64,000 nt of DNA from assembly GCF_055900595.2 (NCBI RefSeq), contig NZ_CM148325.1, one strand, 5' to 3'. The notes beneath the pieces were generated by a model. That model saw only the letters and a list, made by a program, of their open reading frames with translations, was not told the origin of the DNA and searched no databases. Shown here one piece after another: positions 1,018-62,486 of the stretch (positions are counted from its first letter, which is position 1; the number at the start of each line of letters is the position of its first letter). The position numbers and the translations under genes are program-made.

Positions 1018-2617
<1,600 letters not shown>

Positions 2618-2621
2618 GTTC

Positions 2622-3173
2622 ATGCAAACGAAAAAAAATGAAATTTGGGTGGGTATCTTTTTATTAGCAGCACTGCTGGCGGCGCTGTTTGTTTGCCTGA
2701 AGGCGGCGAACGTGACGTCCATACGTACTGAACCGACCTATACGCTTTATGCGACGTTCGATAACATTGGCGGCCTGAAAGCGCGCTCTCCGGTCAGCAT
2801 TGGTGGCGTTGTTGTGGGCCGGGTGGCGGATATTACGCTGGACCCGAAAACCTATCTGCCACGCGTAACGCTGGAAATTGAACAACGTTATAACCACATT
2901 CCTGATACCAGTTCGCTGAGCATCCGTACTTCCGGCCTGCTGGGGGAACAATATCTGGCATTAAACGTCGGTTTTGAAGACCCGGAACTGGGGACTGCTA
3001 TCCTGAAGGATGGCGATACAATCCAGGACACTAAGTCTGCGATGGTGCTGGAAGATCTCATTGGTCAGTTCCTTTACGGTAGTAAAGGCGATGACAATAA
3101 GAATAGTGGCGATGCGCCAGCTGCTGCGCCAGGTAATAATGAAACCACTGAACCTGTGGGTACAACGAAATAA
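2622..3173 (+). CDS. mlaD: MCE-domain periplasmic substrate-binding protein MlaD
   Basis: ATG at 2622 gives MQTKKNEIWVG..., 183 aa; ORF-track start 2607 is an upstream extension. Confidence 0.9.
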   Translation: MQTKKNEIWVGIFLLAALLAALFVCLKAANVTSIRTEPTYTLYATFDNIGGLKARSPVSIGGVVVGRVADITLDPKTYLPRVTLEIEQRYNHIPDTSSLSIRTSGLLGEQYLALNVGFEDPELGTAILKDGDTIQDTKSAMVLEDLIGQFLYGSKGDDNKNSGDAPAAAPGNNETTEPVGTTK

Positions 3174-3826
<653 letters not shown>

Positions 3827-27418: not shown

Positions 27419-27435
27419 GGTTTTTAGGGTTCTAT

Positions 27436-27510
27436 GCGGGATAAGGCGTTTACGCCGCATCCGGCATGGATTGCCTGATGCGACGCTGGCGCATCTTATC
27501 AGGCTACGTG
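27436..27510. repeat. REP (repetitive extragenic palindrome) elements between infB and rbfA
   Basis: gcgggataaggcgtttacgccgcatccggc... and ...gcctgatgcgacgctggcgcatcttatcaggc, typical REP sequence. Confidence 0.55.
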
Positions 27511-43673: not shown

Positions 43674-43848
43674 GTCGGATGCGGCGTAAACGCCTTATCC
43701 GACCTACGGTTTGCATCGTTGTAGGCCTGATAAGACGCGGCAAGCGTCGCATCAGGCAACGGCAGTCGGATGCGGCGCAGGCGCCTTATCCGACCTACGG
43801 TTTGCATCGTTGCAGGCCTGATAAGACGCGGCAAGCGTCGCATCAGGC
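43674..43848. repeat. Tandem BIME: two near-identical 84-bp REP-pair units at 91-bp period
   Basis: Unit 1 43674-43757 and unit 2 43765-43848, each gtcggatgcggcg...gccttatccgacctacggtttgcatcgttg.aggcctgataagacgcggcaagcgtcgcatcaggc. Confidence 0.7.
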
Positions 43849-43862
43849 ATTACAAGGCGTTG

Positions 43863-47511: not shown

Positions 47512-48375
47512 ATGAAACAACACCAATCGGCGGATAATTCTCAGGGCCAGCTTTACATTGTACCGACGCCAATCGGCAATCTGGCAGATATCACCCAGCG
47601 TGCGTTGGAGGTTTTACAGGCCGTTGATCTGATTGCCGCCGAGGATACGCGTCATACCGGTTTACTGCTGCAACATTTTGGAATTAACGCCAGGTTGTTC
47701 GCCTTGCACGACCATAACGAACAACAGAAAGCCGAAACGTTACTGGCGAAGCTGCAGGAAGGGCAAAACATTGCGCTGGTGTCCGATGCCGGAACGCCAC
47801 TGATTAACGATCCCGGCTATCATCTGGTGCGTACCTGCCGAGAAGCGGGGATTCGCGTGGTGCCACTACCGGGGCCGTGTGCTGCTATCACTGCATTAAG
47901 TGCTGCGGGTTTACCATCCGATCGTTTTTGTTATGAAGGTTTCCTGCCTGCCAAATCAAAAGGCCGTCGTGATGCGCTAAAAGCCATTGAAGCGGAGCCG
48001 CGTACGCTGATTTTTTATGAATCCACCCACCGTCTGTTAGATAGCCTGGAAGATATCGTTGCTGTGCTGGGTGAGTCCCGTTACGTGGTGCTGGCGCGTG
48101 AGCTCACCAAAACCTGGGAAACCATTCACGGCGCGCCCGTTGGCGAGCTGCTGGCGTGGGTCAAAGAAGATGAAAACCGTCGCAAAGGTGAAATGGTGCT
48201 GATTGTTGAAGGCCATAAAGCACAGGAAGAAGACTTACCTGCCGATGCCCTGCGCACGCTGGCGTTGTTACAGGCTGAGCTTCCGCTGAAGAAAGCGGCG
48301 GCGCTGGCAGCAGAGATTCACGGCGTGAAAAAAAACGCGCTGTATAAGTATGCGCTGGAACAGCAGGGGGAGTGA
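47512..48375 (+). CDS. rsmI: 16S rRNA C1402 2'-O-methyltransferase RsmI
   Basis: 287 aa ORF divergent from lpoA. Confidence 0.9.
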
Positions 48376-48379
48376 TTAC

Positions 48380-48412
48380 AGGCGTCGCAGCAAGAATAGA
48401 GCTGCAACGCCT
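48380..48412. terminator. Palindrome between convergent rsmI and agaI (candidate bidirectional terminator)
   Basis: ggcgtcgcagc-aagaataga-gctgcaacgcc imperfect inverted repeat filling the 49-bp gap. Confidence 0.4.
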
Positions 48413-48424
48413 ACACCGGGCGAT

Positions 48425-49192
48425 TTAACGACGACACATCTCATCAATCATGCATGTGAAATAGTTATGCAGCCATAAAAACGAAGCCGGGATAGCGGTA
48501 GAGACTTTAGCCGTGAGAAAACGTTCTGTCGCATCCTGCTTTCCTTCGCCAGTTATCAGTAACAAAACTTCGCGGGCATTGAGAATATCCTTCAGGCCTA
48601 AAGTGATCCCACGAGTCACGGGGCGACCCGCGGTTTTTAACATCTCATGTTGTTGCGTTCTGGTATCAAGCTGGCTGATATGGCTTGCTGGTTGCAGACT
48701 TTCTCCCGGTTCGTTCAGCCCAAGATGGCCGTTTTTTCCCAATCCGAGAACGCATAAATCCAGACCGCCTTTGCGCGCAATCAGGTTCGTTACCCGTTCG
48801 CACTCTGTCTCATTTATCTCTTCAGAGCGAAAGCTGATGAGCTGGTCTTCACGTAGCCCCAGCGGCTGCACGATATGCTGTTGAAGGAAAGTTTCGCAGG
48901 TGCCAGGCATCGTTAATGGCAGATCCACCCATTCGTCGAGCTTCACGAAGGTCAGTTGGCTGACATCAACCTGCTGCTGGTGGATTTTTTCTACCAGATA
49001 ATGATACGTCAGTAATGGCGTGGCTCCGGTCGCCAGGCAAATCACGGCATCCGGTTTGCTACGGATCACGGCCAATAAATATTCGCTGGCACGTTCACTT
49101 AACGCCGTATAGTTTTCAACTTGTTGAAGGGTTTGCACAGGATGAAATTCCTTTAGTAAAGAGGCACCACCAGACGCAGTGCCTCGTTCCAT
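48425..49192 (-). CDS. agaI: Galactosamine-6-phosphate deaminase/isomerase AgaI (NagB family)
   Basis: 255 aa ORF; last gene of the agaS-kbaY-agaBCDI block; ATG directly follows agaD stop. Confidence 0.85.
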   Translation of the reverse strand: MERGTASGGASLLKEFHPVQTLQQVENYTALSERASEYLLAVIRSKPDAVICLATGATPLLTYHYLVEKIHQQQVDVSQLTFVKLDEWVDLPLTMPGTCETFLQQHIVQPLGLREDQLISFRSEEINETECERVTNLIARKGGLDLCVLGLGKNGHLGLNEPGESLQPASHISQLDTRTQQHEMLKTAGRPVTRGITLGLKDILNAREVLLLITGEGKQDATERFLTAKVSTAIPASFLWLHNYFTCMIDEMCRR

Positions 49193-53837: not shown

Positions 53838-54971
53838 TCAAAACGAAGCTAATTGACCCTGAATCCAGATTTGTTGCACATACAGTCCGCTATTCAGCGC
53901 AACGACGCTGGCGCGTTTGCCCGGTTTAAGTGATCCCAGAACACCATCAACACCCAGCATTCGCGCCGGATGCAGCGATGCCATATGGATGGCTTCCGCA
54001 GGCGTTACGCCCGTCAACTCGACCATGTTGCGCACTGCCGCATCGACAGACAGCGTACTGCCCGCCAGCCCACCGGACGCGGTACGGACAACGCCACCGC
54101 GCATCTGCACTTCTTCACCACATAACGTATATTGACCATCCGGCATCCCGGCTGCCTGCATCGCATCAGTTATCAGCACTATTCTCTCTTTCGCACAGCA
54201 ACAACACAGCGACATCGCCGCCGGATGTACATGATGCCCATCGGCTATCAATTCCAGCCAGGCGCGCTTGTCCGTTAAACCCGCGCCAACCATTCCCGGT
54301 TCGCGGTGATGTAATCCTGTCATCCCGTTATAGCAATGCACCAGGCCGTCTGCGCCAGCATCAAATACGGCGCGGGTTTGTTGCCAGGTTGCTGCGCTAT
54401 GTCCCAGCATTACCCGCACGTTCTGCTGTTTAAGATGACGAATGGCTTGTAACGCGCCCGTTTTTTCCGGTGCCAGCGCCACCACGCGCAAGGTATGCCG
54501 TGAAACAGCAATCAATTGATCCAGCTCGGCAATTTCCAGCTCGCGAAACAGCTCCGGCGGATGTGCGCCTTTATTCTGCGGCGTGAAGTACGGTCCTTCG
54601 AGATAACTCCCCAGCACTTGCGCACCAGGTCCACCGCGCTGGCAGCGTAGAGCAATACGTTCCAGCGCCGCATGAATGGTATTAAGCGGCGCGGTTACGG
54701 TAGTCGGCAACCAACTGCCGACACCTTCCCGTGCCTTGTGCATTGCCAGCTTGTCGAGCACATCCGGCGCGTCATCCATAACATCAACGCCCGCACCACC
54801 GTGTACATGGGTATCGATATAAGCGGGGCAGAGCAGTTCCGCATCGCGTTCAGTCACGCCCACTGGAATCGGTTCGATTGCTGCAATTACACCGTCAGCA
54901 ATATGCAACTGATGATCATCAAGCCAGCCCTCCTCAGTCAGCAGTCTTCTGGCGCGCAGAACGTGTGTCAT
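53838..54971 (-). CDS. agaA: N-acetylgalactosamine-6-phosphate deacetylase AgaA (full length)
   Basis: ATG at 54971 gives MTHVLRARRLLTEEGWLDD..., about 377 aa NagA-like amidohydrolase; uninterrupted. Confidence 0.85.
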   Translation of the reverse strand: MTHVLRARRLLTEEGWLDDHQLHIADGVIAAIEPIPVGVTERDAELLCPAYIDTHVHGGAGVDVMDDAPDVLDKLAMHKAREGVGSWLPTTVTAPLNTIHAALERIALRCQRGGPGAQVLGSYLEGPYFTPQNKGAHPPELFRELEIAELDQLIAVSRHTLRVVALAPEKTGALQAIRHLKQQNVRVMLGHSAATWQQTRAVFDAGADGLVHCYNGMTGLHHREPGMVGAGLTDKRAWLELIADGHHVHPAAMSLCCCCAKERIVLITDAMQAAGMPDGQYTLCGEEVQMRGGVVRTASGGLAGSTLSVDAAVRNMVELTGVTPAEAIHMASLHPARMLGVDGVLGSLKPGKRASVVALNSGLYVQQIWIQGQLASF

Positions 54972-55402
54972 ATTCCTTCCTCGACCGGACATTCTTCATG
55001 GCAGCGGCCTAACTCGTCTACCAGACTGGTCAGCCCACGGTGTCCACACTCCAGCGCCTGCACACGGAATTCTTCACCGCTTAACCCTTCGCGCTCCAGC
55101 ACCATTTCCAGTAACAGTTGCAAATTGGTGCCGGTGATCACTTCATAGCCCGGTTTTTGCATCGCCAGCGTTGAAGCCACGCGAAACGGTGTGCCGCCCA
55201 GCAAATCTGTCAGAAAAACAATGCCGTCTTCACAATCCAGTTGGGCGATGGCTTCTTCAAGCTGCGATGTAAGCAGCGCAGTGCTTGAGGTTTCCGGAAA
55301 ATCAATGGCGATAAACTGCGACTGCTCGCCGAGGATTTGCTTCATTGCTTTTTCCATGCCGCTGGCAAATCCGCCATGCCCTGTCAAAATAATACTTAAC
55401 AT
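54968..55402 (-). CDS. agaF: PTS N-acetylgalactosamine/galactosamine EIIA component AgaF
   Basis: 144 aa mannose-family EIIA. Confidence 0.85.
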   Translation of the reverse strand: MLSIILTGHGGFASGMEKAMKQILGEQSQFIAIDFPETSSTALLTSQLEEAIAQLDCEDGIVFLTDLLGGTPFRVASTLAMQKPGYEVITGTNLQLLLEMVLEREGLSGEEFRVQALECGHRGLTSLVDELGRCHEECPVEEGI

Positions 55403-55419
55403 CTAATACCTCATTGTAT

Positions 55420-56298
55420 TTAAAGGAAATGACAGAATTTACCGACGATGCCAAGAACCACGGTAACCGCAATCAGGCGCAGCGGACTCCAGCCGCGGCG
55501 TACCAGCCAGAACATGGTCAGGGTGTAGACCAGCGGTAAGAAGGCAGGCATCAGTTTGTCGATAACGTCAGCCTGCAGCTTAACCACTGCGTCGCCCGCC
55601 GTGATTTCCAGCGTGGTGCTTAAACGAACATAGGTTGCCACCAGCGCGCCGATTACCGTCATCCCAACGATTGACGCAGCATGGCCGACTTTTTTGGTAT
55701 TCGCTTTAATGAGTGGAATCGCCGCCACGCCCATGCGGTAAGCATAATGCGCCAGACCAAAACGCAGCCCCAGGTGTACCACGTTGAACAGCACAATAAA
55801 GACGACTGCGCCAAGAATAGAGCCTTGCAATGCCAGACTGGCTCCAATCCCGCCACAAATCGGCAGTAACGTTAGCCAGAACATGGCATCGCCAATCCCG
55901 CCGAGCGGCGCACCGACGGCAATTTTGGTGCTCTGAATACTGTTAACGTCCTGCTTAGAACGCTCCATCGCAAGGATAATGCCGATAACAAACGTCACCA
56001 GAAACGGATGGGTATTGAAGAAACCCATATGTCCCTTCATGGCGCGCGCCAGGTCGCGTTTATTAGTGTGGATCTTTTTCAGAGCAGGCAGCAGACCGTA
56101 CAACCAGCCGGAAGCCTGCATACGTTCGTAGTTAAAAGACGCTTGTAACAGCATGGAACGCCAGGCGACGCGGTTGATATCTTTTTTCGTCAGCTCTGCG
56201 CCAATGCTCTGATCTTCATACACGTTTTCATTGACGCCTGTCAGCAGTGTCTCTTCATTTTCGCTGACGTTCGGCAGGGTGGTTTGATTAGATGCCAT
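55420..56298 (-). CDS. agaE: PTS N-acetylgalactosamine-specific EIID component AgaE
   Basis: ATG at 56298 gives MASNQTTLPNV..., about 292 aa; 11-bp overlap with agaW like the agaC/agaD junction. Confidence 0.85.
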   Translation of the reverse strand: MASNQTTLPNVSENEETLLTGVNENVYEDQSIGAELTKKDINRVAWRSMLLQASFNYERMQASGWLYGLLPALKKIHTNKRDLARAMKGHMGFFNTHPFLVTFVIGIILAMERSKQDVNSIQSTKIAVGAPLGGIGDAMFWLTLLPICGGIGASLALQGSILGAVVFIVLFNVVHLGLRFGLAHYAYRMGVAAIPLIKANTKKVGHAASIVGMTVIGALVATYVRLSTTLEITAGDAVVKLQADVIDKLMPAFLPLVYTLTMFWLVRRGWSPLRLIAVTVVLGIVGKFCHFL

Positions 56299-57067
56299 CT
56301 TCAAATTCCTCTTTCTGTGCCGCAGGTTGAGTCGGTTCAGGAGATTTACGCAGCAAGTCGATCAGCGCCATCGCCAGCGCGGCGGCAGCAATAGCCAGCA
56401 CCGGTAACTTGAGCCAGGCTGCGGCAACAAAGCCCAGGATGAAGTAGGGGATGTAGACGTTTTTCATCATGATTTTCAGCAGCACGGCAAAACCGATTGC
56501 TGGCATGATGCCACCCGCGACGCCGAGGCCGTCGATTAATCGTTGCGGCAGGACATCAATGATGGTTTTGGCATGTTCTGCGCCGAAGTAGATAGGCAGG
56601 AAAGCGCAGAGAAAATAGAACGTGCCGAGTGCCAACAGTGCCAGATAGTTCACGCGTTCAATGCCGCGTGTATCGGCGTTCTCCGCCATCCGGTCGCAGC
56701 GGGACATTACGCCAGACATCACCGAGAACAGGAAGGTAATCCCCATCTGTACTGCGACAGCGAAAGGTACGGCGACACCGACCGCGACATCCGGTTTCAC
56801 GCCAGTAGTAATGGCAAACGCCGTGCCGACGATAGTTCCGATAATCACGTTAGGCGGCTGTGCGCCCGCCAGTGGTGCCAGCCCCATCCACACCAGTTCC
56901 AGCGTACCGCCGGTTAAAATACCGGTATGCAGATCGCCAAGCACCAACCCAACTAACGGGCCGAGGACCACCGGGCGGTGCATATGGGTCAAGCCGTTAA
57001 ACATATCCAGGCCAGCGATAAAGGCGATAATGCCCAACGCAAATGCCTGCAACAGACTGATTTCCAT
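56288..57067 (-). CDS. agaW: PTS N-acetylgalactosamine-specific EIIC component AgaW (full length)
   Basis: 259 aa mannose-family EIIC, paralogous to AgaC; uninterrupted. Confidence 0.85.
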   Translation of the reverse strand: MEISLLQAFALGIIAFIAGLDMFNGLTHMHRPVVLGPLVGLVLGDLHTGILTGGTLELVWMGLAPLAGAQPPNVIIGTIVGTAFAITTGVKPDVAVGVAVPFAVAVQMGITFLFSVMSGVMSRCDRMAENADTRGIERVNYLALLALGTFYFLCAFLPIYFGAEHAKTIIDVLPQRLIDGLGVAGGIMPAIGFAVLLKIMMKNVYIPYFILGFVAAAWLKLPVLAIAAAALAMALIDLLRKSPEPTQPAAQKEEFEDGI

Positions 57068-59102: not shown

Positions 59103-59912
59103 ATGAGTAATACCGACGCTTCAGGCGAGAAGCGAGTGACAGGCACCAGCGAGCGACGAGAACAAATCATTCAGCGCCTGCGACAGCAAGGGAGTGTGCA
59201 GGTTAACGATCTGTCGGCATTGTATGGCGTATCTACTGTGACGATCCGCAACGATCTGGCGTTTCTGGAAAAGCAGGGGATCGCTGTGCGGGCCTATGGC
59301 GGCGCGTTGATCTGCGATAGCACGACGCCGTCAGTCGAGCCATCAGTGGAAGATAAAAGCGCGCTGAACACTGCGATGAAACGCAGCGTTGCGAAAGCTG
59401 CCGTTGAGTTGATTCAGCCAGGTCATCGGGTGATCCTCGATTCCGGGACCACCACGTTTGAGATTGCTCGTCTGATGCGCAAGCACACTGACGTAATTGC
59501 GATGACCAATGGTATGAACGTAGCCAATGCACTGCTGGAAGCAGAAGGCGTTGAACTTCTTATGACCGGCGGGCATCTGCGGCGTCAGTCGCAATCTTTT
59601 TACGGCGATCAGGCTGAACAATCGCTACAAAATTACCACTTCGATATGCTGTTTCTTGGCGTAGATGCTATTGATCTGGAGCGCGGCGTCAGCACGCATA
59701 ATGAAGATGAAGCCCGTTTAAACCGTCGGATGTGCGAAGTTGCGGAACGGATCATCGTGGTCACCGATTCCAGTAAGTTCAACCGTTCCAGTTTACATAA
59801 GATCATTGATACTCAACGTATCGACATGATCATTGTTGATGAAGGCATTCCTGCGGATAGTCTGGAAGGACTGCGAAAGGCTGGGGTTGAAGTGATTCTG
59901 GTCGGGGAGTGA
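59103..59912 (+). CDS. agaR: DeoR-family transcriptional repressor AgaR
   Basis: 269 aa ORF with N-terminal HTH and DeoR C-terminal domain. Confidence 0.9.
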
Positions 59913-59966
59913 GAAATGGTGCCCGCTGGTCAACACCAATGCGTTCGGCGGGCATTGTGAACACCA

Positions 59967-60431
59967 TCAATGGTTTTCTTCTGTCTCTTGGGTGAGGCTT
60001 TCCCAGTCGGCAGGAGGATGTCCTCTTTTTAACATTTTACTGAATACGGTATAGGCATCTGTTTTTTTACCGTAGGTGCGCAGCGTGTTTTCATCGTTCA
60101 TCCATCCCAGAATGATGACTTTCTCTTTTTCACTGTAACGAAAGAAGAGACGATAGCGACCAGCACCAAATTTTACCCGTGACCAGTCTTTATTTTTCCC
60201 AGAGCCTAACGACTTGCCATGACGGAATGCCGGTGATGATGGATTGACCGTGATATGCTCCTCAATCACTTTATGGACCACCGCCAATAACTTTGTGGCA
60301 GCTTTTCTCTGATAATTTTCAGGATCTTTTCCCTTTAATGCCTCGACTTCGGCAACTAAAGCATCGTAGGTTTCCTGAAAACAGGGATGAGCATATAGCG
60401 CCCAACCATTAACCCTTTGTGGAAAATCCAT
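59967..60431 (-). CDS. yhaV: Toxin YhaV (ribosome-dependent mRNA interferase)
   Basis: 154 aa ORF MDFPQRVNGWALYAHPCFQETYDALVAEVE...; start overlaps prlF stop. Confidence 0.85.
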   Translation of the reverse strand: MDFPQRVNGWALYAHPCFQETYDALVAEVEALKGKDPENYQRKAATKLLAVVHKVIEEHITVNPSSPAFRHGKSLGSGKNKDWSRVKFGAGRYRLFFRYSEKEKVIILGWMNDENTLRTYGKKTDAYTVFSKMLKRGHPPADWESLTQETEENH

Positions 60432-60766
60432 TATTCGTCGTCGCCAATCTCATCGTCAATGTTGACGTCCATGCCAGCGACAAGTTTCTTTCCTTGTTGA
60501 ATGTCGAATGGACGAGTTTTTTGCGGGTTGTTCTGGATATCTGCATCCAGAAAACGCAAAAATGCATTCATAGTATGATCCTCCTGTTCATCTCCCAGTC
60601 GGCACATAAATACTTGCCCACCAGGCAGAATTTCGTAATGAATGCTGTCCAGGCCTGGCTTCAGTTTTAAGGCCTCACGCACTGGCGCGGGGATAGTTGT
60701 TTGTCCGCGTATCGTGACCTTTGATTCAGTGGTCAGTACAGCGTTAGAGCGAGCATTAGCGGGCAT
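60431..60766 (-). CDS. prlF: Antitoxin PrlF (SohA), AbrB/SpoVT-type
   Basis: 111 aa ORF with acidic C-terminus; immediately upstream of yhaV. Confidence 0.85.
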   Translation of the reverse strand: MPANARSNAVLTTESKVTIRGQTTIPAPVREALKLKPGLDSIHYEILPGGQVFMCRLGDEQEDHTMNAFLRFLDADIQNNPQKTRPFDIQQGKKLVAGMDVNIDDEIGDDE

Positions 60767-60914
60767 TATTTACTGTCCTTTTACAGCCTGTTTTCTGCTC
60801 AAATTATAAGCTTGAACTAAGGTAATGCAAATGCATTATTAATGGATGTGTGGACTTTAAACAATAAAAACATGGCACTAAGGCCATGTTTTGCGAGGGA
60901 CGTTCCAAAAGAAA

Positions 60915-62486
60915 TCAGGTCACCGGTGCCGGGTTAAACACCGCCAGCTGGTTATGCAGTCCCCATTGATCTGAGAAGGTTTTCTTCTTCCCGCTGGCGA
61001 CGTCGAGAATAAAGTGGAACAGCTTCCAGCCCACTTCTTCTATGGTTTCTTCGCCGGTGGCGATGGTGCCTGCGTTGATATCCATTAAGTCAAACCAACG
61101 GTTTGCCAGTTCGGTGCGGGTCGCCATTTTAATGACGGGTACTACCATCAGGCCATATGGCGTGCCGCGACCGGTCGTAAACACTTGCACGGTAATCCCT
61201 GATGCCACCTGTTGCGTGCCACAGACAAAATCGCTGGCTGGCGTCGCGGCGTAAATTAATCCGCGTTTAGTCGGGCGTTGACCGGGCGATAGCACTTCAA
61301 CAATTGCGCTTTTACCCGATTTAGCAATGGAGCCGAGAGCCTTCTCCACTACGTTTGCCAGACCGCCTTTCTTGTTGCCCGGAGAAGGGTTGGCGCTGCG
61401 GTCGGTTTTTCCCATATTCAGATAGTTATCGTACCACTCCATCTCTTCCAGCAGACGCTTGCCGACCTCTTCGTTCACTGCGCGCGGCGTCAGCAGATGG
61501 ATCGCGTCACGCACTTCTGTGACTTCCGAGAACATCACTGTTGCACCGCAGCGCACCAGTAGATCAGACGCATACCCAACCGCTGGATTTGCCGTTACGC
61601 CAGAAAACGCATCGCTGCCACCGCACTGCATGCCGACAACCAGTTCTGAAGCCGGACAGGTTTCTCGCTGACGTTGATTCAGTTTTTGTATATGGCGTTC
61701 GGCGACCTGCAAAATATCCTCGACCATGGACTGAAAACCGACATGCTTTTCATCCTGCAAACTGACAATGCTGGCGCTTTCTACTGGAATAGCTTGCACA
61801 TCATCCGTTCCAGTCAGCAGGCGCTCAGGCTGCAACTTTTCACAACCCAGACCAATCACCATTACTTCGCCGCCAAAGTTAGGGTTCAGCGAAATATTGT
61901 GAATGGTACGGATAGGCACAACTGCCGCCGGTGCGTTAATCGCCACGCCACAACCGTACAAATGATTCAGCCCCACCACGCCATCGACGTTCGGGTATTT
62001 CGGTAGCAGATCGCGTTCAATGATTTTTACTACGTAGTCCACCACGCCTGCCACACAGTGGACGCTGGTGGTGATGCCGAGCAGGTTTTTGGTGCCCACG
62101 CTGCCATCAGCATTGCGATAGCCCTCAAAGGTGTATCCTTCCAGCGGCGGTAAGGGTTCCGGGACTTTGGTTGCCAGTGGCAGTGTGTGTAACGGCGGCG
62201 CTTCCGGTAGTACAACCATTGATTCGTCGATCCAGCTTCCGCGTGGGATTGCGCGCACGGCGTAACCAATCACTTCACCATAACGAATAATTTCACCATT
62301 AGCCGGAATGTCCAGCAATGCGACTTTATGCCCCTGGGGAATATGTTCAATTAATTCCAGCCCATCCGGAAAACGCGTTCCTGCTTTCAGGCCATTATCA
62401 TTAACAATAATTGCCACATTATCTGTGTCATGAACTTTTATATAAAACGCAGTTGGCGTTTCTTGTCTGATTTCGATGTTGGCCAT
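60915..62486 (-). CDS. garD: Galactarate dehydratase
   Basis: 523 aa [31 protein letters not shown]... Confidence 0.9.

What the first reader, a model, noticed from the sequence alone, without database searches (positions are those of the whole stretch)
59967..60766. prlF-yhaV type II toxin-antitoxin pair between agaR and garD
A 111 aa AbrB-fold antitoxin with an acidic tail (IDDEIGDDE) is followed, with overlapping stop and start codons, by a 154 aa toxin ORF matching YhaV. The pair is intact and at the conserved chromosomal position. This is a known module; it matters only as the one defence/stress-type element in the window.
Basis: partly seen in the sequence, partly recalled or inferred. 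Interest (0 to 1): 0.3.

Follow-up and report, generated by a model that had tools for sequence, protein, structure and literature searches.

The report
Known E. coli prlF-yhaV toxin-antitoxin pair
This is the ordinary, already well-studied prlF-yhaV toxin-antitoxin gene pair of Escherichia coli, intact and in its usual chromosomal place, so it is correctly identified but not new.

Summary
The observation and the interpretation both hold. On the minus strand, a 111-aa ORF (60766..60431) and a 154-aa ORF (60431..59967) share one base (TAATG).

- **Family:** they score 4e-41 for Pfam PrlF_antitoxin and 7e-54 for Toxin_YhaV.
- **Identity:** both are 97% identical to the characterised K-12 proteins.
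- **Position:** the order garD-prlF-yhaV-agaR-kbaZ is the same as in K-12.
- **Source:** the whole 64-kb window is 99.96-99.99% identical and collinear with an E. coli chromosome. RefSeq annotates the two genes there as prlF and yhaV.
- **Distribution:** the locus is in 5167 of 5426 complete E. coli genomes.
- **Toxin fold:** a high-confidence model (pLDDT 96.5) matches only RelE/ParE-type toxins in the PDB. Every residue invariant across 57 diverse homologues is retained.
- **Operator:** a 16-bp palindrome (TAATGCA-tt-TGCATTA, 60823-60838) overlaps the -35 hexamer. It is conserved upstream of three other prlF-yhaV loci (PrlF 59-77% identical), two of them in other genomic contexts.

Two caveats apply. 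The AbrB fold of PrlF is supported only by weak sequence hits, because the structure model failed. "Defence" is unsupported, since neither protein matches PADLOC.

One minor allele detail: the TTCAACA x2 slippage hot spot of K-12 prlF is interrupted here (TTCGACA-TTCAACA).

Verdict: already known, low interest.

The parts
60431..60766 (-). prlF: antitoxin and autorepressor, 111 aa, with an acidic C-terminal tail
   Evidence: ORF. PF15937 at 4.1e-41 and the NF007429 equivalog at 7.5e-50. 97% identical to K-12 PrlF, differing at H8N, Q39L and N88D. Annotated prlF (WP_001296435.1) in the genome that is 100% identical here.
59967..60431 (-). yhaV: RelE/ParE-fold ribonuclease toxin, 154 aa
   Evidence: ORF. 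PF11663 at 6.6e-54. 97% identical to K-12 YhaV, differing at T31A, T145S, R148Q and T153N. AlphaFold2 pLDDT 96.5. The top 46 Foldseek PDB hits are all RelE/HigB/YoeB/ParE/PfiT toxins. All invariant residues are retained.
60429..60433 (-). TAATG junction: the prlF stop and the yhaV start share one base, which implies translational coupling
   Evidence: Read directly from the sequence. The same one-base overlap appears in homologous loci L009, L011 and L013, where the antitoxin end coordinate equals the toxin start coordinate.
60823..60838 (.). Putative operator: the perfect palindrome TAATGCA-tt-TGCATTA, overlapping the -35 hexamer
   Evidence: Inverted repeat I7. It is identical in K-12. The same palindrome lies 73-81 nt upstream of the ATG in three divergent prlF-yhaV loci (PrlF 77%, 63% and 59% identical), two of them in unrelated contexts, while the flanking sequence is not conserved. 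A review reports that the PrlF-YhaV complex binds a palindrome in the prlF promoter (PMC7781912).
60803..60831 (-). Sigma-70-type promoter: -35 TTTGCA (60831..60826), 17-nt spacer, -10 TATAAT (60808..60803)
   Evidence: Consensus scan, 10 of 12 matches. Identical in K-12. A -10-like hexamer sits at the same distance from the palindrome in the other loci. This is a consensus match only; no transcript has been mapped here.
60776..60780 (-). Shine-Dalgarno AAGGA, 9 nt upstream of the prlF ATG
   Evidence: Read directly from the sequence.
60495..60508 (-). Heptanucleotide pair TTCGACA-TTCAACA in prlF (nt 259-272). K-12 has the perfect repeat TTCAACA x2, the site of prlF1-type +7-bp frameshifts. 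Here the repeat is interrupted (C at 60505 on the + strand, giving D88).
   Evidence: An extra TTCAACA copy recurs in K-12 laboratory evolution (PMC7686311). The window-type 71-bp segment is identical in 517 of 5155 genomes and the K-12 type in 3627.
60867..60892 (-). garD intrinsic terminator hairpin, which separates prlF-yhaV from garD transcription
   Evidence: 10-bp stem followed by a T run. Folding energy -12.4 kcal/mol, z = -3.96, matched by 0 of 200 shuffles.
59920..59954 (.). Inverted repeat in the 54-nt gap between the convergent yhaV and agaR stop codons; a possible bidirectional terminator (weak)
   Evidence: I5 arms TGCCCGC/GCGGGCA. Folding is no better than shuffles (z = -1.0 and -1.4), and no T run follows on the yhaV strand, so the function is unproven.

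Best explanation
This is the chromosomal prlF-yhaV type II toxin-antitoxin operon of E. coli.

- **Transcription.** One sigma-70-type promoter (60831..60803, minus strand) drives a bicistronic mRNA. The garD terminator lies just upstream.
- **Translation.** prlF is translated first. yhaV is coupled to it through the TAATG overlap.
- **Toxin.** YhaV has a RelE/ParE fold. [quoted passage not shown]
- **Antitoxin.** PrlF is thought to bind DNA through an N-terminal MazE/AbrB-like domain. Its C-terminal part, with the acidic tail, binds and neutralises YhaV.
- **Autoregulation.** The PrlF-YhaV complex, reported as PrlF2-YhaV4 (PMC7781912), binds the palindrome TAATGCAttTGCATTA over the -35 hexamer and represses the operon.
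- **Activation.** Losing PrlF, or truncating its C-terminus as in prlF1-type +7-bp frameshifts, derepresses the operon and frees YhaV.

**Shown here:** gene anatomy, orthology, synteny, the toxin fold, retention of conserved residues, and a conserved operator-like palindrome.

**Taken from work on the 97%-identical K-12 proteins:** toxicity, rescue by the antitoxin, ribosome dependence, complex stoichiometry, DNA binding and the link to Lon.
For: - ORFs and the one-base overlap.
- Pfam and NCBIfam scores above the curated cutoffs.
- 97% identity to K-12 PrlF and YhaV.
- Same synteny as K-12.
- The window is collinear with an annotated E. coli chromosome at 99.96-99.99%.
- The locus is in 5167 of 5426 complete genomes.
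- YhaV model pLDDT 96.5, with the top 46 PDB fold matches all RelE/ParE-superfamily toxins.
- Invariant R85, R94, N112, R118, D125 and Y127, and near-invariant K87, are retained.
- The promoter plus a palindrome conserved in five loci spanning 59-100% PrlF identity.
- Literature: Culviner 2021 (PMC8546651) reports rescuable toxicity, sub-codon bias and a G preference. Gerdes 2025 (PMC11980606) places YhaV in a ribosome-dependent RelE/ParE family. PMC7781912 reports the hexamer, palindrome binding and prlF1. PMC5408214 reports that replacing two conserved arginines abolishes activity.
Against: - Nothing in the sequence contradicts this explanation.
- No experiment was done on this allele, which carries seven amino-acid differences from K-12.
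- The AbrB/MazE fold of PrlF could not be confirmed structurally: model pLDDT 48.6 and an uninformative hhalign against MazE.
- The literature disagrees on whether YhaV needs the ribosome. Schmidt 2007 reported ribosome-independent cleavage in vitro, whereas Choi 2017 and Culviner 2021 reported ribosome dependence (Table 1).
- The physiological trigger and benefit are unknown ('Signals: Unknown' in PMC7781912).
- No terminator downstream of yhaV is convincingly predicted.
Confidence: 0.93

Rival explanations
1. The pair is an intact-looking but inactive remnant. The ORFs persist, but this allele's toxin, or its neutralisation, has been crippled by its substitutions.
For: The allele differs from K-12 at 4 YhaV and 3 PrlF residues. 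Loss-of-function yhaV mutations are readily selected in chemostats (PMC5960147). Natural frameshifted prlF alleles exist.
Against: All seven substitutions lie at positions that vary among homologues. Every invariant or near-invariant YhaV residue is retained. D88 in PrlF is the residue seen in all more distant homologues. The same DNA is 100% identical in eight other genomes and at least 99% identical in 888. The promoter, operator, Shine-Dalgarno site and coupling junction are all intact.
Confidence: 0.04
2. The locus matters mainly as a regulator rather than as a growth-arrest module. On this view PrlF (SohA) acts as a DNA-binding protein and modulator of Lon activity, affecting protein export and envelope stress, and YhaV serves chiefly as its co-repressor.
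For: prlF1/sohA alleles suppress the degP(htrA) null phenotype and LamB-LacZ jamming in a Lon-dependent way (PMC5408214; PMC7781912). The locus is near-core (95% of genomes) and sits among metabolic operons rather than in a mobile island. A prlF +7-bp mutant changes ompF and sodB expression and drug susceptibility (PMC7686311).
Against: These phenotypes come from mutant or over-expressed PrlF. Their authors also attribute them to released YhaV RNase activity. The toxin is under clear constraint across 984 representative homologues. This rival does not exclude the main explanation.
Confidence: 0.12
3. It is an anti-phage abortive-infection module. On this view, infection depletes PrlF and the freed YhaV shuts down translation.
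For: Other RelE/ParE-family toxin-antitoxin systems are reviewed as contributing to defence against phages and plasmids (PMC11980606). A Salmonella homologue sits in a mobile-element-like context next to ANT- and YfjT-domain genes.
Against: Neither protein matches any PADLOC model. The E. coli copy is at a fixed, near-core position between sugar-acid and amino-sugar operons, not in a defence island. None of the papers read reports a phage phenotype.
Confidence: 0.06

Closest known systems
E. coli K-12 PrlF(SohA)-YhaV (b3129-b3130), a type II toxin-antitoxin system (Schmidt et al. 2007; Choi et al. 2017)
   Same: Same genes at the same locus: garD-prlF-yhaV-agaR. Protein lengths are the same (111 and 154 aa) and both are 97% identical. 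The TAATG overlap, promoter, palindrome and garD terminator are identical.
   Different: PrlF differs at H8N, Q39L and N88D. YhaV differs at T31A, T145S, R148Q and T153N. N88D interrupts the K-12 heptanucleotide repeat TTCAACA x2, giving TTCGACA-TTCAACA. Two bases next to the start codon also differ.
RelBE (E. coli RelE, PDB 4FXE/4FXH/4V7J)
   Same: The toxin fold is the same: Foldseek probability about 1.0 and TM up to 0.79 normalised to RelE. Both are ribosome-dependent mRNA cleavers with a G preference (PMC8546651). A local motif alignment pairs YhaV R85-x-K87 and RYRLFF with RelE K52-x-K54 and GYRLVY (weak).
   Different: Sequence similarity is not significant (hhalign probability 1.2%; no PDB sequence hit). 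YhaV is about 60 residues longer, with extra N-terminal strands and long helices. Its antitoxin is MazE/AbrB-like rather than the ribbon-helix-helix RelB.
MazE / AbrB swapped-hairpin antitoxins
   Same: PrlF residues 15-39 resemble the AbrB/MazE DNA-binding motif. 9 of 12 PrlF homologues hit PF04014, with a best E of 8e-5. The three best PDB profile hits are all AbrB-family regulators. The C-terminal tail is acidic.
   Different: All these hits are below the curated thresholds. The partner toxin has a RelE fold, not a MazF fold, so this is a 'mix-and-match' pair. The reported stoichiometry is PrlF2-YhaV4 (PMC7781912).

Membership tests
PrlF antitoxin family (Pfam PF15937 / NCBIfam NF007429) | Full-length match above the curated score cutoff | tested here: met
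   PF15937 scores 139.6 bits against a cutoff of 32, covering profile positions 1-99 of 99. NF007429 (equivalog) scores 167.6 bits against a cutoff of 125.
YhaV toxin family (Pfam PF11663) | Full-length match above the curated score cutoff, with family-invariant residues retained | tested here: met
   182.1 bits against a cutoff of 35, covering profile positions 1-137 of 138. P64, R85, R94, F96, W110, N112, R118, D125 and Y127, invariant in 57 homologues, are all present.
Orthologue of E. coli K-12 prlF-yhaV (b3129-b3130) | High identity and the same chromosomal neighbours | tested here: met
   97% amino-acid identity for both proteins. The order garD-prlF-yhaV-agaR-kbaZ is the same. The flanking 7.3 kb is 96.6% identical and collinear.
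Type II toxin-antitoxin system | Two small co-oriented genes in one operon, antitoxin first, with overlapping or coupled reading frames | tested here: met
   TAATG overlap at 60429-60433 and a single upstream promoter. Three divergent loci have the same architecture.
Type II toxin-antitoxin system | Autoregulation through an operator in its own promoter | tested here: met
   The palindrome TAATGCA-NN-TGCATTA overlaps the -35 hexamer. It is conserved at -73 to -81 in 5 of 5 loci examined although the flanks are not conserved. Binding itself was not tested here; it is reported for K-12 (PMC7781912).
Type II toxin-antitoxin system | The toxin arrests growth and is neutralised by direct binding of the protein antitoxin | not testable with these tools
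   This is reported only for the K-12 proteins: rescuable toxicity in PMC8546651 and complex formation in PMC7781912.
RelE/ParE (BECR-fold) toxin superfamily | RelE-like alpha/beta fold | tested here: met
   AlphaFold2 model with pLDDT 96.5 and pTM 0.91. Foldseek ranks 1-46 against the PDB are all PfiT, RelE, HigB, YoeB or ParE toxins, with probability up to 1.00 and target-normalised TM of 0.6-0.79.
RelE/ParE (BECR-fold) toxin superfamily | Ribosome-dependent cleavage of mRNA at the A site | not testable with these tools
   Literature only, and it conflicts: 'Yes (44), No (43)' in Table 1 of PMC8546651.
AbrB/MazE swapped-hairpin DNA-binding fold (PrlF N-terminus) | Recognisable SpoVT/AbrB-type domain by sequence or structure | tested here: inconclusive
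   PF04014 scores 17.5 bits (cutoff 24.7) and TIGR01439 scores 26.4 bits (cutoff 28.3). 9 of 12 homologues hit PF04014. The top three PDB profile hits are AbrB regulators at E of 0.5-0.7. The AlphaFold2 monomer has pLDDT 48.6. hhalign against MazE is uninformative.
Catalogued anti-phage defence system (PADLOC-DB v2) | Match to a defence-system protein model | tested here: not met
   No family matches either protein at E <= 0.1.

The most novel reading that the evidence does not exclude
The heptanucleotide TTCAACA in prlF may act as a natural slippage (contingency-type) switch.

- Most E. coli (the K-12 type, 3627 of 5155 genomes) carry two perfect copies. Gaining one copy recurs in laboratory evolution and gives beta-lactam heteroresistance.
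- Natural isolates reach 6 copies (E. coli FORC_042) and an inferred 7-19 copies in Shigella sonnei and some E. coli.
- The window's lineage (517 of 5155 genomes) keeps D88, probably the ancestral residue. That allele interrupts the repeat (TTCGACA-TTCAACA).
- This lineage should therefore enter the derepressed, toxin-active state much less often.
Probability: 0.3. Interest if true: 0.4.

Novelty: already known. Interest (0 to 1): 0.1.

Why it matters
For annotation it matters little. This is a near-core E. coli toxin-antitoxin module that was described in 2007 and is correctly named by standard pipelines. It is the only toxin-antitoxin system annotated in this 64-kb window.

Three points still have some value:
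1. Comparing divergent loci pins the likely operator to one 16-bp palindrome.
2. The PDB copy searched holds no experimental structure of PrlF or YhaV, although the complex is reported to have an unusual 2:4 stoichiometry.
3. This strain's prlF allele lacks the perfect 7-bp repeat that makes K-12 prone to prlF1-type frameshifts. That could matter for anyone extrapolating K-12 resistance-evolution results to other lineages.

Tried and rejected
- **Sequence searches of the PDB.** Neither protein, nor profiles of either, gave a meaningful hit. The only suggestive result was three AbrB-family hits for PrlF at E about 0.5. The 'YhaV (PDB 2KHE)' shown in a review figure is listed by Foldseek as Thermus thermophilus RelE (rank 12), so it is not a YhaV structure.
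- **AlphaFold2 of the PrlF monomer.** A 12-sequence alignment gave pLDDT 48.6. I did not use it for a fold search because the matches would be meaningless. PrlF is probably an obligate swapped-hairpin dimer whose C-terminus is disordered without the toxin.
- **hhalign of the PrlF profile against K-12 MazE.** It matched only the 'NIDDE' string, in the wrong region, so I rejected it.
- **hhalign of the YhaV profile against K-12 RelE.** The local match was not significant (probability 1.2%). I use it only as a hint for residue correspondence.
- **Primary paper.** Schmidt et al. 2007 (PMC2699681) is not held, so the published operator and the identity of the mutated arginines could not be checked directly.
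- **Terminator downstream of yhaV.** The inverted repeat at 59920-59954 folds no better than shuffles.
- **Internal promoter-like site** in the 3' end of prlF (60459..60430). Its -10 hexamer overlaps the yhaV start codon, so a transcript from it would lack the start. I treat it as a chance match.
- **Antisense ORFs** on the plus strand (60419-60670 and 60642-60809). I found no support for them.
- **Other RNA elements.** The Rfam scan of the window found no RNA family at this locus.

Full report
**1. Observation**

The ORF list shows two minus-strand ORFs at the reported coordinates.
- One runs 60766..60431 and encodes 111 aa (MPANARSNAV...NIDDEIGDDE).
- The other runs 60431..59967 and encodes 154 aa (MDFPQRVNGW...ETEENH).

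The raw sequence shows that the first ORF's TAA stop and the second ORF's ATG share one base (TAATG, 60433..60429).

- A DeoR-family ORF at 59103..59912 (+) matches the AgaR equivalog at 4e-140.
- A 523-aa ORF at 60915..62486 (-) matches galactarate dehydratase at 4e-283.

**2. Identity**

*Family scores.* Pfam scores the 111-aa protein as PrlF_antitoxin (4.1e-41, full profile length). It scores the 154-aa protein as Toxin_YhaV (6.6e-54, full length). NCBIfam scores the first as the PrlF equivalog NF007429, above its cutoff.

*Source of the window.* A megablast of 59900-60920 against 5,426 complete E. coli genomes finds the locus in 5,167 of them. Eight match at 100% and 888 at 99% or more. 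Every listed hit (the 15 best rows) is annotated yhaV, prlF, agaR and garD. The whole 64-kb window aligns without gaps at 99.96-99.99% to E. coli strain Z0117EC0005, so that genome's RefSeq annotation transfers directly.

*Comparison with K-12 MG1655.*
- PrlF is 108/111 identical, differing at H8N, Q39L and N88D.
- YhaV is 150/154 identical, differing at T31A, T145S, R148Q and T153N.
- The order garD-prlF-yhaV-agaR-kbaZ is the same.
- The 1-kb locus is about 97% identical at the DNA level, much like the flanking 7.3 kb at 96.6%. This looks like ordinary vertical divergence, not a swapped allele.

**3. Is it intact and likely functional?**

*Toxin.* A HMMER search of 1.84 billion representative proteins found 984 YhaV relatives at E <= 1e-3. 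In an alignment of 57 near-full-length relatives (33-55% identical), nine positions are invariant: P64, R85, R94, F96, W110, N112, R118, D125 and Y127. K87 is nearly invariant. The window protein has all of them. Its four differences from K-12 fall in the first long helix and the C-terminal tail, none at a conserved (invariant or near-invariant) position.

A review of the primary paper states that YhaV has highly conserved arginines and that replacing two of them abolishes activity (PMC5408214). I could not check which two, because the primary paper is not held.

*Antitoxin.* The three PrlF differences are at positions that vary among 12 homologues. D88 is in fact the residue found in the ten non-E. 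coli homologues with a residue aligned there; the eleventh, the most divergent, has S at that column.

**4. Fold tests**

- **No solved structure.** Sequence and profile searches of the PDB found no solved PrlF or YhaV.
- **YhaV.** AlphaFold2 with the 57-sequence alignment gave a confident model (pLDDT 96.5, pTM 0.91). Foldseek against the PDB ranks only RelE/ParE-superfamily toxins in places 1-46. These include PfiT, E. coli RelE, HigB2, M. tuberculosis RelE1/RelE2, YoeB and ParE. Probabilities reach 1.00 and target-normalised TM is 0.6-0.79. YhaV therefore has a RelE-type core with extra N-terminal strands and long helices.
- **Residue correspondence.** A weak hhalign match to K-12 RelE pairs YhaV R85-V-K87 and R94 (in RYRLFF) with RelE K52-I-K54 and R61 (in GYRLVY). 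This is a hint only.
- **PrlF.** The AbrB/MazE fold remains only suggested. Hits to PF04014 and TIGR01439 over residues 15-38 are below threshold. Nine of 12 homologues hit PF04014, with a best E of 8e-5. The three best PDB profile hits are all AbrB-family regulators, at E about 0.5. The monomer model failed (pLDDT 48.6).

**5. Regulatory anatomy**

- **Upstream boundary.** Just after garD there is a strong terminator hairpin at 60892..60867 (z = -3.96).
- **Promoter.** A sigma-70-type promoter follows: -35 TTTGCA at 60831..60826, a 17-nt spacer, and a perfect -10 TATAAT at 60808..60803.
- **Ribosome-binding site.** AAGGA lies 9 nt before the ATG.
- **Operator candidate.** A perfect palindrome, TAATGCA-tt-TGCATTA (60823-60838), overlaps the -35 hexamer.

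To test whether the palindrome means anything, I fetched three divergent prlF-yhaV loci.
- An unnamed Enterobacteriaceae genome (PrlF 77% identical) still has the pair next to garD.
- A Salmonella enterica contig (63%) has it in a mobile-element-like context, beside ANT- and YfjT-domain genes.
- A third contig (59%) has it in yet another context.

All three carry the same palindrome, (G)TAATGCA-NN-TGCATTA(C), 73-81 nt upstream of the ATG. In each, a -10-like hexamer follows at the same distance, while the surrounding DNA is unrelated. This is good comparative evidence for the operator. It agrees with the report that the PrlF-YhaV complex binds a palindrome in the prlF promoter (PMC7781912).

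Downstream, the 54-nt gap to the convergent agaR contains an inverted repeat that folds no better than shuffled sequence. Termination of the operon is therefore unresolved.

**6. Mechanism**

These points come from work on the K-12 proteins and are inferred for this allele.
- YhaV is toxic when induced and is rescued by PrlF.
[quoted passage not shown] This groups it with RelE and HigB as a ribosome-dependent nuclease (PMC8546651; PMC11980606).
- An earlier in vitro study reported ribosome-independent cleavage of mRNA and rRNA, so this point has been disputed.
- PrlF2-YhaV4 hexamers bind the operator cooperatively.
- prlF1/sohA alleles truncate the PrlF C-terminus and derepress the operon. They suppress degP-null and LamB-LacZ jamming phenotypes in a Lon-dependent way.
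- The natural trigger is listed as unknown.

**7. Defence or stress?**

Neither protein matches any PADLOC model. The locus is near-core and sits between sugar-acid and amino-sugar operons. No other toxin-antitoxin or defence system is annotated anywhere in the window, and Rfam finds no type I antitoxin RNA.

General stress genes (ftsH, deaD, dolP, yhbO, yhbQ) are also present.

**8.

K-12 prlF contains TTCAACA-TTCAACA at nt 259-272. A third copy is the single recurrent prlF mutation in a large laboratory-evolution study. It raises prlF-yhaV expression, lowers ompF and sodB mRNA, and gives carbenicillin, aztreonam and D-valine resistance, with heteroresistance (PMC7686311).

In the window the first copy reads TTCGACA (C at + strand 60505, giving D88), so the repeat is imperfect.
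- The window-type 71-bp segment is identical in 517 of 5,155 genomes.
- The K-12 type is identical in 3,627.

Natural expansions exist.
- E. coli FORC_042 has six copies and a frameshifted prlF pseudogene. Its yhaV carries R92L.
- Shigella sonnei and some E. coli encode PrlF variants of 130, 137, 144 and 151 aa. Their FNIQHST repeats correspond to 7, 10, 13 and 16 copies.

I found no paper on the natural expansions in the searchable library. This is a side lead about relatives. It does not change what the window contains.

**9. Verdict**

The finding is real and correctly interpreted, and it is already known. Interest is low. The only mildly novel angle is the interrupted slippage hot spot and the possibility that the heptanucleotide behaves as a natural switch.

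Noticed in passing
window 60495-60508 (- strand; prlF nt 259-272): The K-12 slippage hot spot TTCAACA x2 is interrupted here (TTCGACA-TTCAACA, giving D88). The window-type segment is identical in 517 of 5155 E. coli genomes and the K-12 type in 3627. D88 is the residue in all more distant PrlF homologues with a residue aligned there, so the perfect repeat in K-12 looks derived.
   Followed up: partly
L006 (E. coli FORC_042) 675-1502; proteins P0022, P0024, P0026, P0027, P0087: The prlF heptanucleotide has expanded in nature. FORC_042 has six copies, a frameshifted prlF, and R92L in yhaV. Shigella sonnei and some E. coli have an inferred 7-19 copies, giving 130-151-aa PrlF variants with FNIQHST repeats; some of these are mis-named 'deoxyribonuclease HsdR' in their source records. 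I found no paper describing this.
   Followed up: partly
L011/L012 (Salmonella enterica contigs) 2501-3297: A prlF-yhaV homologue (PrlF 63% identical) lies in a mobile-element-like context, beside genes with ANT antirepressor and YfjT domains. It has the same operator palindrome. The family is therefore not confined to the garD-agaR position.
   Followed up: partly
window about 48375-48425 (the agaI-rsmI junction): The yraHIJK fimbrial operon, about 5.4 kb in K-12 between agaI and rsmI, is absent. By the collinear annotation, agaI and rsmI are only about 50 bp apart here.
   Followed up: partly
window 54396-56692: The aga cluster is complete here (agaW, agaE, agaF, agaA/nagA). K-12 has a 2.3-kb deletion at this point that leaves agaW and agaA as pseudogenes.
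   Followed up: partly
window 43674-43849: Two 85-bp copies in inverted orientation (95% identical) lie between dolP and yraQ. They coincide with an Rfam naRNA4 (REP/BIME-type) hit at 43724-43795. A second naRNA4 hit lies at 27435-27505.
   Followed up: no
window 60430-60459 (- strand): A promoter-like consensus (TTGACG, 18 nt, AATAAT; 10 of 12 matches) lies inside the 3' end of prlF. Its -10 hexamer overlaps the yhaV start codon, so it is probably a chance match.
   Followed up: no
E. coli genome search results: 259 of 5426 complete E. coli genomes have no match to the locus. One place is on a plasmid, and some genomes have up to four places. I examined none of these.
   Followed up: no
protein P0083 (187 aa): One metagenomic protein carries both the PF15937 (PrlF) and PF11663 (YhaV) domains. 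It is either a PrlF-YhaV fusion, of the kind listed in PMC11980606, or a frameshift artefact.
   Followed up: no
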